Positions 11,801 through 17,800 of a stretch of 45,560 nt of DNA are shown piece after piece. The stretch's first letter is position 1. Each line of letters begins with the position of its first letter. The DNA comes from Escherichia phage ev243. The position numbers were made by a program. The stretch is taken from the sequence record NC_049955.1. One strand, 5' to 3'.

Positions 11801-14800
11801 CGCCCGCCAGGAGGAACTGAATAAGGCACTGAAAGACGGAAAAATCCTGCAGGCAGATTACAACACGCTGATGGCGGCGGCGAAAAAGGACTATGAAGCG
11901 ACGCTGAAAAAGCCGAAGCAGTCCGGCGTGAAAGTGTCTGCGGGCGATCGTCAGGAAGACAGTGCTCATGCTGCCCTGCTGACGCTTCAGGCAGAACTCC
12001 GGACACTGGAGAAGCATGCCGGAGCGAATGAGAAAATCAGCCAGCAGCGCCGGGATTTGTGGAAGGCGGAAAGTCAGTTCGCGGTACTGGAGGAGGCGGC
12101 GCAACGTCGCCAGCTGTCCGCACAGGAGAAATCCCTGCTGGCGCATAAAGATGAGACGCTGGAGTACAAACGCCAGCTGGCTGCACTTGGCGATAAGGTC
12201 ACGTATCAGGAGCACCTGAACGCGCTGGCGCAGCAGGCGGATAAATTCGCACAGCAGCAACGGGCAAAACGGGCAGCCATTGAGGCGAAAAACCGGGGGC
12301 TGACTGACCGGCAGGCAGCGCGGGACGCCACGGAACAGCGCCTGAAGGAACAGTATGGCGATAATCCGCTGGCGCTGAATAGCGTCATGTCAGAGCAGAA
12401 AAAGACCTGGGCGGCTGAAGACCAGCTTCGCGGGAGCTGGATGGCAGGCCTCAGGTCAGGCTGGAGTGAGTGGGAAGAGAGCGCCACGGACAGTATGTCG
12501 CAGGTTAAAAGTGCAGCCACGCAGACCTTTGATGGTATTGCACAGAATATGGCGGCGATGCTGACCGGCAGTGAACAGAACTGGCGCAGCTTCACCCGTT
12601 CCGTGCTGTCCATGATGACAGAAATTCTGCTTAAGCAGGCAATGGTGGGGATTGTCGGGAGTATCGGCAGCGCCATTGGAGGTGCTACCGGTGGCGGCGC
12701 ATCAGCGTCAGGTGGTACAGCCATTCAGGCCGCTGCGGCGAAATTCCATTTTGCGACCGGGGGATTTACGGGAACCGGCGGCAAATATGAGCCAGCGGGG
12801 ATTGTTCACCGTGGTGAGTTTGTCTTCACGAAGGAGGCAACCAGCCGGATTGGCGTGGGGAATCTCTACCGGCTGATGCGCGGCTATGCCACCGGCGGTT
12901 ATGTCGGTACACCGGGCAGCATGGCAGACAGCCGGTCGCAGGCGTCCGGGACGTTTGAGCAGAATAACCATGTGGTGATTAACAACGACGGCACGAACGG
13001 TCAGATAGGGCCACAGGCGCTGAAGGCGGTTTATGACGTAGCCCGTAAGGCGGCAATGGATGTTGTGACCGGGCAGATGCGTGATGGTGGTCTGTTCTCC
13101 GGAGGTGGACGATGAAAACCTTCCGCTGGAAAGTGAAACCGGGTATGGATGTGGCTTCGACTCCTTCCGTCAGGGAGGTGCGCTTTGGTGATGGCTATTC
13201 CCAGCGAGCGCCTGCCGGGCTGAATGCCAACCTGAAAACGTACAGCGTGACGATTTCTGTCCCCCGTTGGGAGGCCACGGCGCTGGAATCGTTTCTGGCA
13301 GAGCACGGAGGCTGGAAAGCCTTTCTGTGGACGCCGCCTTATGACTGGCGGCAGATAAAGGTGACCTGCGCAAAATGGACGTCGCGGGTCAGTATGCTGC
13401 GTGTTGAGTTCAGCGCAGAGTTTAAACAGGTGGTGAACTGATGCAGGATATCCGGCAGGAAACACTGAATGAATGCACCCGTGCGGAGCAGTCGGCCAGC
13501 GTGGTGCTCTGGGAAATCGATCTGACAGAGGTCGGTGGTGAACGTTATTTTTTCTGTAATGAGCAGAACGAAAAAGGTGAGCCTGTCACCTGGCAGGGGC
13601 GGCAGTATCTGGCGTATCCCATTCAGGGGAGTGGTTTTGAACTGAATGGCAAAGGCACCAGTACGCGCCCCACGCTGGCAGTCTCTAACCTGTACGGCAT
13701 GGTCACCGGGATGGCGGAAGACCTGCAGAGTCTGGTCGGCGGAACGGTGGTCAGGCGTAAGGTTTACGCCCGTTTTCTGGATGCGGTGAACTTCGTCAAC
13801 GGAAACAGCGATGCCGATCCGGAGCAGGAGGTGATCAGCCGCTGGCGCATCGAGCAGTGCAGCGAACTGAGCGCGGTAAGTGCCTCCTTTGTACTGTCCA
13901 CGCCGACGGAAACGGATGGTGCTGTTTTTCCGGGGCGCATCATGCTGGCCAACACCTGTACCTGGACCTATCGCGGTGATGAGTGCGGTTATAGCGGTCC
14001 GGCGGTCGCGGATGAATATGACCAGCCGACGTCCGATATCACGAAGGATAAATGCAGCAAATGCCTGAGTGGCTGTAAGTTTCGCAATAATGTCGGCAAC
14101 TTTGGCGGCTTCCTTTCCATTAACAAACTTTCGCAGTAAATCCCATGACAGAGACAGAATCAGCGATTCTGGCGCACGCCCGGCGATGTGCGCCAGCGGA
14201 GTCGTGCGGCTTCGTGGTGAGAACGCCGGAGGGGGAAAGATATTTTCCCTGCGTGAATATCTCCGGTGAGCCGGAGGATTATTTCCGGATGTCGCCGGAG
14301 GACTGGCTGCAGGCAGAGATGCAGGGTGAGATTGTGGCGCTGGTCCACAGTCATCCCGGTGGTCTGCCCTGGCTGAGTGAGGCCGACCGGCGGCTGCAGG
14401 TGCAGAGTGATTTGCCGTGGTGGCTGGTCTGCCGGGGGGCGATTCACAAGTTCCGCTGTGTGCCGCATCTCACCGGGCGGCGCTTTGAGCACGGGGTGAC
14501 GGACTGTTACACGCTGTTCCGGGACGCTTACCATCTGGCGGGGATTGAGATGCCGGATTTTACGCGGGAGGATGACTGGTGGCGTCACGGTCAGAATCTC
14601 TATCTGGATAATCTGGAGGCAACGGGGCTGTATCAGGTGCCGTTGTCAGCGGCGCAGCCGGGCGATGTGCTGCTGTGCTGCTTTGGTTCATCGGTGCCGA
14701 ATCATGCCGCTATTTACTGTGGTGACGGCGAGCTGCTGCACCATATTCCTGAACAACTGAGCAAACGAGAGAGGTATACCGACAAATGGCAGCGACGCAC

Positions 14801-17800
14801 ACACTCCCTCTGGCGTCACCGGGCATGGCACGCATCTGCCTTTACGGGGATTTGCAACGATTTGGCCGCCGCATCGATCTTCGTGTGAAAACGGGGGCTG
14901 AAGCTATCCGGGCGCTGGCCACACAGCTCCCGGCGTTTCGTCAGAAACTGAGCGACGGCTGGTATCAGGTACGGATTGCCGGGCGGGACGTCAGCACGTC
15001 CGGGTTAACGGCGCAGTTACATGAGACTCTGCCTGATGGCGCTGTGATTCATATTGTTCCCAGAGTCGCCGGGGCCAAGTCAGGTGGCGTATTCCAGGTT
15101 GTCCTGGGGGCTGCCGCCATTGCCGGATCATTCTTTACCGCCGGAGCCACCCTTGCAGCATGGGGGGCAGCCATTGGGGCCGGTGGTATGACCGGCATCC
15201 TGTTTTCTCTCGGTGCCAGTATGGTGCTCGGTGGTGTGGCGCAGATGCTGGCACCGAAAGCCAGAACTCCCCGTACACAGACAACGGATAACGGCAAACA
15301 GAACACCTATTTCTCCTCACTGGATAACATGGTTGCCCAGGGCAATGTTCTGCCGGTTCTGTACGGTGAAATGCGCGTGGGGTCACGCGTGGTTTCTCAG
15401 GAGATCAGCACGGCAGACGAAGGGGATGGTGGTCAGGTTGTGGTGATTGGTCGCTGATGCAAAATGTTTTATGTGAAACCGCCTCCGGGCGGTTTTGTCG
15501 TTTATGGAGCATGAGGAATGGGTAAAGGCAGCAGTAAGGGGCATACCCCGCGTGAAGCGAAGGACAACCTGAAATCCACGCAGTTGCTGAGTGTGATCGA
15601 TGTCATCAGCGAAGGGCCGATTGAAGGTCCGGTGGATGGGTTAAAAAGCGTGCTGCTGAACAGTACGCCGGTGCTGGACAGTGAGGGGAATACCAATATC
15701 TCCGGTGTCACGGTGGTGTTCCGGGCAGGTGAGCAGGAGCAGACACCGCCGGAGGGGTTTGAATCCTCCGGCTCCGAGACGGTGCTGGGTACGGAAGTGA
15801 AATATGACACGCCGATCACCCGCACCATCACGTCGGCAAACATCGACCGTCTGCGCTTTACCTTCGGTGTGCAGGCACTGGTGGAAACCACCTCAAAAGG
15901 GGATCGGAATCCGTCGGAGGTCCGCCTGCTGGTTCAGATACAGCGTAATGGTGGCTGGGTGACGGAAAAAGACATCACCATTAAGGGTAAAACCACCTCG
16001 CAGTATCTGGCCTCAGTGGTGGTGGATAACCTGCCGCCGCGCCCGTTTAATATCCGGATGCGCAGGATGACGCCGGACAGCACCACAGACCAGCTGCAGA
16101 ACAAAACGCTCTGGTCGTCATACACCGAAATCATCGATGTGAAACAGTGCTACCCGAACACGGCACTGGTCGGTGTGCAGGTGGACTCGGAACAGTTCGG
16201 CAGCCAGCAGGTGAGCCGTAATTATCATCTTCGCGGGCGCATTCTGCAGGTGCCGTCGAACTATAACCCGCAGACGCGGCAATACAGCGGTATCTGGGAC
16301 GGAACGTTTAAGCCAGCATACAGCAACAACATGGCCTGGTGTCTGTGGGATATGCTGACCCACCCGCGCTATGGCATGGGGAAACGTCTTGGTGCGGCGG
16401 ATGTGGACAAATGGGCGCTGTATGTCATCGGCCAGTACTGCGACCAGTCAGTGCCGGACGGCTTTGGCGGCACGGAGCCGCGCATCACCTGTAATGCGTA
16501 CCTGACCACACAGCGCAAGGCGTGGGATGTGCTCAGTGATTTCTGCTCGGCGATGCGCTGTATGCCGGTATGGAACGGGCAGACGCTGACATTCGTGCAG
16601 GACCGACCGTCGGATAAGGTGTGGACCTATAACCGCAGTAATGTGGTGATGCCGGATGATGGCGCGCCGTTCCGCTACAGCTTCAGCGCCCTGAAAGACC
16701 GCCATAATGCCGTTGAGGTGAACTGGATTGACCCGAACAACGGCTGGGAGACGGCGACAGAGCTTGTGGAGGACACGCAGGCCATTGCCCGTTACGGTCG
16801 TAACGTCACGAAGATGGATGCCTTTGGCTGTACCAGCCGGGGGCAGGCACACCGCGCAGGGCTGTGGCTGATTAAAACAGAACTGCTGGAAACGCAGACC
16901 GTGGACTTCAGCGTGGGCGCAGAAGGGCTTCGCCATGTGCCGGGCGATGTCATTGAAATCTGTGATGATGACTATGCCGGTATCAGCACCGGCGGGCGCG
17001 TGCTGGCGGTAAACAGCCAGACCCGGACGCTGACGCTCGACCGTGAAATCACGCTGCCATCCTCCGGCACCACGCTGATAAGCCTGGTTGACGGTGAGGG
17101 TAATCCGGTCAGCGTGGAGGTCCAGTCCGTCACCGACGGCGTGAAGGTAAAAGTGAGCCGTGTTCCTGACGGTGTTGCTGAATACAGCGTATGGGGGCTG
17201 AAGCTGCCGACGCTGCGCCAGCGCCTGTTCCGCTGCGTGAGTATCCGTGAGAACGACGACGGCACGTATGCCATCACCGCCGTGCAGCATGTACCGGAAA
17301 AAGAGGCCATCGTGGATAACGGGGCGCACTTTGACGGCGACCAGAGCGGCACGGTAAATGGTGTCACGCCGCCAGCGGTGCAGCACCTGACCGCAGAAGT
17401 CACCGCAGACAGCGGGGAATACCAGGTGCTGGCCCGCTGGGACACGCCGAAGGTGGTGAAGGGGGTGAGCTTCCTGCTTCGCCTGACCGTGGCAGCGGAT
17501 GACGGCCGTGAGCGGCTGGTCAGCACGGCCCGGACGACGGAAACCACTTACCGCTTCACACAACTGGCTCTGGGGAACTACAGGCTGACAGTCCGGGCAG
17601 TAAATGCGTGGGGGCAGCAGGGCGATCCGGCGTCGGTATCGTTCCGGATTGCCGCACCGGCAGCGCCGTCGCGGATTGAGCTGACGCCGGGCTATTTTCA
17701 GATAACCGCCACGCCGCATCTTGCGGTTTATGACCCGACGGTACAGTTTGAGTTCTGGTTCTCGGAAAAACGGATTGCGGATATCAGGCAGGTTGAAACC

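What the first reader, a model, noticed from the sequence alone, without database searches (positions are those of the whole stretch)
14145..14888. K is open for 247 codons; the extension completes a JAMM/MPN metalloprotease domain
Seen: the ORF runs from ATG 14145 while the classical 199-aa start (MSPEDW) is internal at 14289 with a plausible SD; HSHPGGLPWLSEAD is an H-x-H-x7-S-x2-D JAMM motif, and candidate upstream Glu residues of that motif lie in the N-terminal extension. Inference: the long form may be the functional protein.
Basis: partly seen in the sequence, partly recalled or inferred. Interest (0 to 1): 0.4.

Follow-up and report, generated by a model that had tools for sequence, protein, structure and literature searches.

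The report
Full-length lambda-type tail assembly peptidase K
The 247-codon reading frame is the real, full-length tail-tip assembly gene K of a lambda-like phage (a JAB/MPN metalloprotease domain fused to an NlpC/P60 peptidase domain); this is already known and annotated, and the "classical" 199-residue K comes from one base missing in the 1982 lambda reference sequence.

Summary
Observation confirmed, interpretation supported, but not new. ORF 14145-14888 (247 aa) is open; the MSPEDW ATG is in frame at 14289, 11 nt after a GGAGG. The full protein scores Prok-JAB (res 4-98, 52.7 bits, cutoff 25) plus NlpC/P60 (res 111-224, 50.4 bits). The 199-aa form drops JAB to 22.9 bits and loses the motif Glu (E19) and the first helix and two strands.

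- 106 of 107 distant full-length relatives carry the N-terminal stretch.
- E19, H68, H70, S78 and D81 are conserved in 98-104 of the 107.
- Residue 49 is Met in only 14 of the 107 (Ile in 67).

The AF2 model (pLDDT 85-95 for residues 1-50) best matches archaeal JAMM1, AMSH, Rpn11 and CSN5.

The identical sequence is already annotated as 247 aa (phage 1H12, YP_009909511.1). The JAMM motif and the JAB + NlpC/P60 architecture of lambda K were published in 2003 and 2006. [quoted passage not shown]

My addition: the 199-aa K exists because reference lambda (J02459/NC_001416) lacks one G (GGAGGC-TATTT). Six independent lambda-derived records, including a cI857 ind1 Sam7 genome, have the G and an open 247-codon frame.

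The parts
14145..14888 (+). Gene K, full length: 247 codons plus TGA. Tail-tip assembly protein K.
   Evidence: ORF. Identical to YP_009909511.1 of phage 1H12, annotated as 247 aa. Lies in the order H-M-L-K-I-J.
14137..14147 (+). L stop codon TAA (14137-14139), a 5-nt spacer, and the K start ATG (14145-14147). There is no Shine-Dalgarno sequence, so initiation is probably coupled to termination of L.
   Evidence: Anti-SD duplex +0.7 kcal/mol upstream of 14145. The same stop-spacer-ATG layout is conserved in 78 viral loci and in E. coli prophages. Coupling is inferred, not shown.
14154..14438 (+). JAB/MPN (JAMM) metalloprotease domain, residues 4-98.
   Evidence: PF14464 Prok-JAB, 52.7 bits, E 4.7e-14, profile 4-103 of 114. 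Matches 2KKS. AF2 model matched by Foldseek to 5LD9/5LDA JAMM1, AMSH, Rpn11 and CSN5.
14199..14201 (+). Codon for E19, the upstream Glu of the JAMM motif. It is absent from the 199-aa form.
   Evidence: Aligned to the Glu of 2KKS. Invariant in A2. Conserved in 102 of 107 distant representatives.
14346..14387 (+). H68-S-H70-x7-S78-x2-D81 (HSHPGGLPWLSEAD), the zinc-ligand part of the JAMM motif.
   Evidence: Read from the sequence. Among 107 distant representatives: H68 in 104, H70 in 103, S78 in 98 (plus 7 Thr), D81 in 104.
14273..14291 (+). GGAGG (14273-14277) and the in-frame ATG of codon 49 (14289-14291): the classical 199-aa start. Most likely not a conserved initiation site.
   Evidence: -9.5 kcal/mol. 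Residue 49 is Met in 14 of 107 distant representatives and Ile in 67. GGAGG is codons P43-E44-D45 and persists with codon 49 = ATT in L096/L097.
14278..14279 (+). Position homologous to the base missing from reference lambda. The window has AT, re-sequenced lambda has CG, and J02459/NC_001416 has C only.
   Evidence: Alignment. Translations. Marker check.
14475..14816 (+). NlpC/P60 (C40, papain-like) peptidase domain, residues 111-224. Putative triad: C121 (14505-14507), H187 (14703-14705), H199 (14739-14741).
   Evidence: PF00877, 50.4 bits, full profile 1-105. C121 in 102, H187 in 103 and H199 in 103 of 107 distant representatives. The triad assignment comes from motif position and conservation, so it is inferred.
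14786..15457 (+). Gene I, the probable substrate: N-terminal ubiquitin-like domain, Gly-rich linker, C-terminal plug domain. Overlaps the last 103 nt of K in another frame.
   Evidence: PF06805 Lambda_tail_I on residues 14-97. SD of -9.3 kcal/mol at ATG 14786. Ubl assignment and predicted processing by K in PMC1779556. Reported cleavage in PMC12908700.

Best explanation
Window 14145-14888 encodes the full-length (247 aa) tail-tip assembly protein K of a lambda-like siphophage. It is a two-domain peptidase: an N-terminal JAB/MPN+ (JAMM) zinc metalloprotease domain (about residues 1-105; E19, H68, H70, S78, D81) fused to a C-terminal NlpC/P60 papain-like cysteine peptidase domain (about residues 111-224; C121, H187, H199).

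Translation starts at ATG 14145, which has no Shine-Dalgarno sequence and lies 5 nt after the stop of L. Initiation is therefore probably coupled to L (inferred).

K is an assembly factor, not a virion component. Its JAB domain acts like a deubiquitinase and clips the N-terminal ubiquitin-like domain off the product of the next gene, I, near the Gly-rich VAGAKSGG stretch. This leaves the C-terminal part of gpI as the plug of the tail tip. That step rests on the literature and was not tested here.

The 199-aa K of the textbooks is an annotation artefact caused by a missing G in the 1982 lambda reference sequence.
For: **Domain content**
- JAB 52.7 bits and NlpC/P60 50.4 bits, both above the Pfam cutoffs. 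The short form falls below the JAB cutoff at 22.9 bits.
- The best match among solved structures is the JAB protein 2KKS, covering residues 7-105.
- AF2 model: pLDDT 84.7 overall and 85-95 over residues 1-50. Foldseek top hits are P. furiosus JAMM1 alone and bound to the Ubl SAMP2 (5LD9/5LDA, target TM 0.67), then AMSH, Rpn11 and CSN5.

**Conservation of the extension**
- Invariant I8, L9, A12, P17, E19, S20, C21, G22, Y33, P35, N38, S40 and F47 in 28 enterobacterial homologues.
- 106 of 107 distant (<65% identity) full-length representatives have it. Their alignments start at query residues 1-19, mostly 3-10, near their own N-termini.
- Coding-type substitution pattern in 69 alleles.

**Short start not conserved**.

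**Existing annotation as 247 aa**: 1H12, phage 21, lambda PV340536 and CJLB-4.

**Reference error**
- NC_001416 reads GGAGGCTATTT. OM418626, PV340536, LC730321, EU078592, KT232076 and MW057783 read GGAGGCGTATTT, each with an open 247-codon frame.
- MW057783 carries all four cI857 ind1 Sam7 markers.

**Function, from the literature**
- JAB + NlpC/P60 TAPK next to the Ubl protein TAPI, predicted to cleave it (PMC1779556).
- Talk report that gpK cleaves the Ubl domain of gpI (PMC12908700).
- gpK is absent from virion mass spectrometry (PMC10721106).
- gpI is resolved only from residue 101 or 135 onward.
Against: - No protein-level evidence for the N-terminus of K is available here.
- ATG 14145 has no SD, whereas ATG 14289 has GGAGG 11 nt upstream. 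Some internal initiation in lambda-type alleles cannot be excluded.
- The gpI-cleavage mechanism rests on a conference summary and a 2006 prediction, not on a full paper I could read.
- Absence of the gpI N-domain from cryo-EM maps could reflect disorder rather than cleavage.
- The role of the NlpC/P60 domain is unassigned.
- Two records (OR974322, OR474059) match the reference without the G. One is flagged UNVERIFIED and unannotated; the other is co-linear with the reference here, with the same L/K/I coordinates and product names. I judge both to be reference-derived, which is inference.
Confidence: 0.88

Rival explanations
1. Two isoforms. Lambda-type phages make both the 247-aa protein (coupled to L) and a 199-aa protein from the internal GGAGG/ATG 14289. 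The short one would be an NlpC/P60-only species with its own role, as with other lambda in-frame pairs.
For: GGAGG with -9.5 kcal/mol anti-SD pairing 11 nt upstream of an in-frame ATG. 68 of 69 close alleles keep ATG at codon 49.
Against: Residue 49 is Ile, Leu or Val in 85 of 107 distant representatives. It is Ile (ATT) in a very common E. coli prophage allele that still has GGAGG, so the SD-like string is explained by codons P-E-A/D. The short product would carry a non-foldable half JAB domain.
Confidence: 0.07
2. Only the classical 199-aa protein is functional, and the open upstream frame is fortuitous.
For: It is the annotation in J02459/NC_001416 and is copied into several records, including ones whose frame is open. 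A 48-codon open stretch has about 14% chance probability.
Against: The extension alone hits Prok-JAB at E = 3e-5. It holds the invariant catalytic Glu, is present in 106 of 107 distant relatives, evolves as coding sequence, and is predicted with pLDDT above 85 as part of the MPN fold. The classical start arose from a missing base in the reference.
Confidence: 0.02
3. Counter-defence. The JAB domain of K mainly removes host ubiquitin-like tags (Bil-type systems) from the central tail fibre J, rather than processing gpI.
For: Speculation in Hor et al. 2023 (bioRxiv 10.1101/2023.09.04.556158). K is encoded next to J and has a DUB-like fold.
Against: K is required for tail assembly in hosts without such systems (stated in PMC12617516). 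The conserved K-I gene pairing and the reported gpI cleavage give a sufficient housekeeping role. The two roles are not mutually exclusive.
Confidence: 0.08
4. Cell-wall lysin. The NlpC/P60 domain makes K a virion-borne peptidoglycan hydrolase used during DNA injection.
For: NlpC/P60 family membership. Weak hits to peptidoglycan hydrolases RipC and the phage cell-wall peptidase family, all far below cutoffs. The lambda enzyme that crosses the wall is unidentified (PMC11101478).
Against: gpK was not detected in virions by mass spectrometry or cryo-EM. There is no signal peptide or virion-attachment evidence. NCBIfam scores are 16-24 bits against cutoffs of 82-517.
Confidence: 0.04

Closest known systems
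Bacteriophage lambda gpK (tail tip assembly protein K; NP_040598.1/AAA96551, annotated as 199 aa; 247 aa in re-sequenced lambda, e.g. XSB40720.1)
   Same: Same gene in the same H-M-L-K-I-J order. The window protein differs from the corrected 247-aa lambda K at only about a dozen residues, and motifs and length are identical.
   Different: The reference lambda record lacks one G, so its K is annotated from codon 49. The window and all independently sequenced lambda derivatives have the open frame.
[quoted passage not shown]
   Same: Identical architecture and gene neighbourhood.
   Different: Nothing found. This is a typical member.
Archaeal JAMM1 / desampylase (P. furiosus JAMM1 5LD9/5LDA; HvJAMM1, NCBIfam NF041370)
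   Same: Compact, insert-free MPN+ domain with E...HxH...S..D. It is the best structural match, and its substrate is a Ubl ending in Gly-Gly.
   Different: Only 21-24% identity, and the NCBIfam score of 28.5 is far below the cutoff of 130. K is fused to an NlpC/P60 domain and works in phage tail assembly.
Eukaryotic JAMM deubiquitinases Rpn11, CSN5, AMSH
   Same: Same fold and catalytic motif.
   Different: These have extra insertions (Ins-1, Ins-2) and partner MPN subunits. Identity is 13-23%.
F-type pyocin assembly proteins PA0639 / PyoF8
   Same: Reported gpK counterparts that are likewise missing from mature particles.
   Different: They belong to a tailocin, not a phage. I did not compare the sequences here.

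Membership tests
JAMM/MPN+ metalloproteases (Pfam PF14464 Prok-JAB) | Profile score above the curated gathering threshold over most of the domain. | tested here: met
   52.7 bits against a cutoff of 25, residues 4-98 on profile 4-103 of 114. The 199-aa form scores 22.9, below the cutoff.
JAMM/MPN+ metalloproteases (Pfam PF14464 Prok-JAB) | E-x(n)-H-x-H-x7-S-x2-D motif (as defined in PMC300881). | tested here: met
   E19, H68, H70, S78 and D81 are present with exact spacing. They are conserved in 98-104 of 107 distant relatives. The motif definition is read (abstract of PMC300881).
JAMM/MPN+ metalloproteases (Pfam PF14464 Prok-JAB) | MPN fold. | tested here: met
   AF2 model with pLDDT 84.7. 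Foldseek against PDB gives top hits 5LD9/5LDA (E 1.7e-5, target TM 0.67, rmsd 2.6-2.8 A), AMSH, Rpn11 and CSN5. This is a predicted structure, not a solved one.
JAMM/MPN+ metalloproteases (Pfam PF14464 Prok-JAB) | Zinc binding and (iso)peptidase activity on a Ubl C-terminus. | not testable with these tools
   Only a conference summary reports gpK cleaving the gpI Ubl domain (PMC12908700).
NlpC/P60 (Pfam PF00877; MEROPS C40) | Profile score above the gathering threshold over the whole domain. | tested here: met
   50.4 bits against a cutoff of 23, residues 111-224 on profile 1-105 of 105.
NlpC/P60 (Pfam PF00877; MEROPS C40) | Conserved Cys-His-(His/Asn/Gln) catalytic triad. | tested here: met
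   C121, H187 and H199 are invariant in A2 and present in 102-103 of 107 distant relatives. Which residue plays which role is inferred from motif position.
NlpC/P60 (Pfam PF00877; MEROPS C40) | Hydrolase activity and substrate. | not testable with these tools
   No experiment available.
Lambda-type tail tip assembly protein K (TAPK) | Position between L (PF05100) and I (PF06805), upstream of J, and close similarity to lambda K. | tested here: met
   phrog_30 'minor tail protein' at E 1.3e-162.
Lambda-type tail tip assembly protein K (TAPK) | Needed for tail assembly but absent from the virion. | not testable with these tools
   Literature on lambda only.
Desampylase (NCBIfam NF041370, equivalog) | Score at or above the equivalog cutoff. 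| tested here: not met
   28.5 bits against a cutoff of 130. It works like one but is not a member.
Phage cell-wall peptidase, NlpC/P60 family (TIGR02219) | Score at or above the cutoff. | tested here: not met
   23.5 bits against a cutoff of 81.9.

The most novel reading that the evidence does not exclude
Lambda-type phages (those that keep ATG at codon 49 behind GGAGG) make a second, 199-residue K isoform by internal initiation. It would be an NlpC/P60-only species with a role distinct from the full-length JAB + NlpC/P60 protein.
Probability: 0.07. Interest if true: 0.35.

Novelty: already known. Interest (0 to 1): 0.15.

Why it matters
Scientifically it adds little. The architecture was published in 2003 and 2006, the 247-aa gene model exists for this very sequence, and the mechanism (K clipping the ubiquitin-like domain off I) has been reported from the Davidson laboratory.

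The practical value is curatorial. The most-used lambda reference (J02459/NC_001416) still shows a K truncated by 48 residues, so it lacks the catalytic Glu and a third of the JAB domain. Records that copy its annotation inherit this, and at least one structural review did its domain analysis on "199 residues" and reported only the peptidase domain (PMC7291167). Anyone cloning, modelling or mutating lambda K from the reference record will work with a broken protein.

Tried and rejected
- **Shine-Dalgarno test for the long start.** ATG 14145 has none (+0.7 kcal/mol) while the short start has GGAGG. At face value this favours the short start. I set it aside because GGAGG is explained by codons P43-E44-D45 and persists where codon 49 is ATT, and because the stop-spacer-ATG layout with L is conserved.
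- **Chance openness of the extension.** Not significant by itself (p about 0.14), so I relied on domain scores and conservation.
- **Records matching the reference without the G (OR974322, OR474059).** I examined both and treated them as not independent. One is flagged UNVERIFIED and unannotated. The other is co-linear with the reference and carries reference-style gene calls. That they derive from the reference is my inference.
- **Papers noting the missing base.** A search on '14266' found nothing relevant.
- **Papers not held.** The Casjens and Hendrix 2015 review and the Liu et al. 2013 lambda ribosome-profiling paper are not in the library.
- **Active-site geometry.** Model coordinates are not exposed to scripts, so I could not measure Glu/His/Asp or Cys/His distances.
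- **NCBIfam.** It gave only sub-threshold hits.

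
Full report
**1. What is in the sequence**

The window is a lambda-like siphophage. Over L-K-I it is 100% identical to Escherichia phage 1H12 and several "Lambda_ev" isolates.

The ORF listing reports a single ORF at 14145..14888 on the + strand, 247 aa, beginning MTETESAILAHARRCAPAESCGF. It lies between L (13441..14139, PF05100) and I (14786..15457, PF06805), upstream of J.

The MSPEDW methionine is codon 49 (ATG 14289-14291). GGAGG sits at 14273-14277. HSHPGGLPWLSEAD is residues 68-81 and fits H-x-H-x7-S-x2-D exactly.

**2. Is the extension meaningful?**

Openness alone is weak evidence. A 48-codon stop-free stretch has a probability of about 0.14 from composition, and up to 20% of such windows in off-frames of neighbouring genes are open. 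What the extension encodes is not weak evidence.

- *Pfam scores.*
  - Prok-JAB (PF14464) matches residues 4-98 at 52.7 bits (cutoff 25), covering profile positions 4-103 of 114.
  - NlpC/P60 (PF00877) matches residues 111-224 at 50.4 bits.
  - The 199-aa form retains only profile positions 63-103 of JAB and falls to 22.9 bits, below the cutoff.
  - The 48 residues alone hit profile positions 3-51 at E = 3e-5.
- *Solved relative.* The best solved relative by sequence is the JAB protein 2KKS, aligned over residues 7-105. Its NEACG aligns with PAESCG, which identifies E19 as the motif glutamate.
- *Structure model.* An AlphaFold2 model built on 28 homologues has mean pLDDT 84.7 and 85-95 over residues 1-50. 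These residues form helix 3-15 and strands 20-27 and 30-36 of the domain.
- *Structural matches.* Foldseek against the PDB puts P. furiosus JAMM1 first, alone and bound to the ubiquitin-like SAMP2 (5LD9/5LDA; E 1.7e-5, target TM 0.67). AMSH, Rpn11 and CSN5 follow. BFVD returns two-domain phage proteins of 235-266 aa and stand-alone phage JAB and NlpC/P60 proteins.

**3. Comparative evidence**

- *Enterobacterial homologues.* Among 28 homologues (69-96% identity), I8, L9, A12, P17, E19, S20, C21, G22, Y33, P35, N38, S40 and F47 are invariant, all within the extension.
- *Exhaustive search.* A search of 1.84 billion representatives gave 2,795 relatives at E <= 0.001.
- *Distant relatives.* Among 107 full-length representatives below 65% identity, 106 carry the N-terminal stretch, with a median of 9 residues ahead of the position of I8.

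| Residue | Conserved in (of 107) |
|---|---|
| E19 | 102 |
| H68 | 104 |
| H70 | 103 |
| S78 | 98 (plus 7 Thr) |
| D81 | 104 |
| C121 | 102 |
| H187 | 103 |
| H199 | 103 |

- *Residue 49.* It is Met in only 14 of the 107 and Ile in 67.
- *Close alleles.* In 69 distinct alleles from viral contigs, variable sites in codons 1-48 fall 6/2/18 by codon position, against 31/20/70 for the rest of the gene. Synonymous to non-synonymous counts are 17:12 and 81:50. The extension therefore evolves as coding sequence in this frame.

**4. Start codons**

ATG 14145 has no Shine-Dalgarno pairing (+0.7 kcal/mol) and lies 5 nt after the TAA of L. The layout TAA-spacer-ATG is kept in the relatives. This suggests termination-reinitiation coupling, which is inferred rather than shown.

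ATG 14289 has GGAGG (-9.5 kcal/mol) ending 11 nt upstream. That string is simply codons CCG-GAG-GAT (Pro-Glu-Asp). A very widespread E. coli prophage allele (P0030) keeps CCG-GAG-GCG but has ATT at codon 49. The "plausible SD" is therefore not evidence of a conserved internal start. Minor internal initiation in lambda-type alleles cannot be excluded.

**5. Where the "classical 199 aa" comes from**

- *The missing base.* Translating the reference lambda record upstream of its K start gives a stop (…EYLR*AGGYFRMSPEDW). Aligning it with the window and phage 21 shows a one-base gap in the reference: GGAGGC-TATTTCC against GGAGGCGTATTTCC and GGAGGATTATTTCC.
- *How common the gap is.* With 800 nt of reference lambda as query, four records matched at 100%: J02459, NC_001416, one UNVERIFIED record and one reference-like record. 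Nineteen lambda or lambda-derived records matched 801 nt at 99.9%.
- *Records read directly.* Lambda imm434 (OM418626), Lambda (PV340536), Lambda_AGU (LC730321), DE3 (EU078592), Lambda (KT232076) and "CJLB-4" (MW057783) all have the extra G. Each has an open 247-codon frame beginning MTQTESAIL.
- *The strain question.* MW057783 carries T, T, A, A at reference positions 37589, 37742, 43082 and 45352. From my own knowledge, that is the cI857 ind1 Sam7 marker set, the genotype of the stock used for the 1982 sequence and of commercial lambda DNA. LC730321 is wild type at all four positions. Both have the G.
- *A second discrepancy.* The re-sequenced genomes also lack a G at reference position 138. 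This agrees with my recollection, which I could not verify with the tools, of a supplier's note listing "138 G deleted, 14266 G inserted".
- *Conclusion.* The 199-aa K is most simply a sequencing omission that was then inherited. Some records with an open frame still copy the short start. Others aa.

**6. How it works**

- *Published architecture.* The JAMM motif of lambda K was listed in 2003 (PMC300881). Iyer, Burroughs and Aravind (2006) described TAPK as JAB + NlpC/P60. It is encoded next to TAPI, whose N-terminus is a ThiS/MoaD-like ubiquitin fold ending in a conserved Gly. They predicted that K cleaves it there (PMC1779556).
- *Reported experiment.* A report of the 2025 Conference on Bacteriophages summarises a talk by A. 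Davidson (PMC12908700). [quoted passage not shown] This occurs only after gpI has engaged the other tip proteins, which enforces the order of assembly.
- *Structural support.*
  - gpK is not found in virions by mass spectrometry or cryo-EM.
  - gpI is resolved only from residue 101 (PMC11101478) or 135 (PMC10721106) onward.
  - In the window's gpI, the Pfam Ubl domain ends at residue 97 and is followed by AKSGG (98-101).
- *Shown here.* The domain content, motifs, fold prediction, conservation, gene order and the reference error.
- *Taken from the literature.* Cleavage of gpI and absence of K from the virion.
- *Inferred.* Translational coupling to L, the exact cleavage site, and the role of the NlpC/P60 domain.

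**7. Rivals**

- *Two isoforms.* Probability about 0.07. Not excluded, but residue 49 is not conserved.
- *Short form only.* Probability about 0.02. Contradicted by sections 2, 3 and 5.
- *Anti-Bil deubiquitinase.* Speculated in Hor et al. 2023. It may be an added role, but it is not needed to explain an essential assembly gene.
- *Virion peptidoglycan hydrolase.* Disfavoured because K is absent from virions and NCBIfam scores are far below cutoffs.

**8. Verdict**

The same sequence is deposited with a 247-aa K. The architecture is nearly twenty years old in the literature, and the mechanism has been reported. The useful residue is curatorial: the lambda reference record still truncates K because of one missing base, and some recent work still analyses "199 residues" (PMC7291167).

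Noticed in passing
window 14786-15457 (gene I), alternative starts 14825 and 14885: The start of gene I is annotated inconsistently. ATG 14786 gives 223 aa, has an SD of -9.3 kcal/mol and overlaps K by 103 nt. GTG 14885 gives 190 aa, overlaps the K stop as GTGA, has no SD, and is the start used in NC_049947 and in E. coli prophage gene calls. Pfam Lambda_tail_I covers residues 14-97 of the 223-aa form, so the GTG start would cut off about 20 residues of the ubiquitin-like domain. ATG at Met14 (14825) is also possible.
   Followed up: partly
window 15065-15088 (gpI residues 94-101, VAGAKSGG): [quoted passage not shown] One cryo-EM study resolves gpI from residue 101 onward (PMC11101478). This looks like the JAB cleavage site, analogous to the Gly-Gly end of ubiquitin and SAMP.
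   Followed up: no
window 14786-14888 (K residues 214-247 / I residues 1-34): The C-terminal 34 residues of K lie mostly beyond the NlpC/P60 domain yet are unusually conserved: W215, R217, H220, S221, W223, H225, W228, T234, G235, I236, N238 and D239 are invariant in 28 homologues. This stretch is double-coded with the start of gene I in another frame, which may explain the constraint.
   Followed up: no
L091/L092 (lambda reference 1-400), position 138: Reference lambda has an extra G at position 138 (GCGAGGCTTTTT against GCGAGCTTTTT) relative to re-sequenced lambda genomes LC730321 and MW057783. This second single-base discrepancy offsets the coordinates between 138 and about 14266.
   Followed up: yes
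L095 (MW057783.1, 'Campylobacter phage CJLB-4'): This record is bacteriophage lambda cI857 ind1 Sam7: all four marker bases are present and the S gene is split. It is almost certainly commercial or control lambda DNA mislabelled as a Campylobacter phage. OR974322.1 ('isolate P6/2022/SA' from chicken cloacal swabs) likewise looks like reference or control lambda.
   Followed up: partly
window 15518-19015 (gene J): J is 1165 aa here against 1132 aa in lambda. The receptor-binding end of the central tail fibre therefore differs from lambda, although L-K-I are about 96-97% identical.
   Followed up: no
L096 3013-3672 (E. coli prophage, minus strand): A Cu/Zn superoxide dismutase gene (PF00080, sodC-type cargo) is inserted on the opposite strand between I and J in an E. 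coli prophage that carries the Ile49 allele of K.
   Followed up: no
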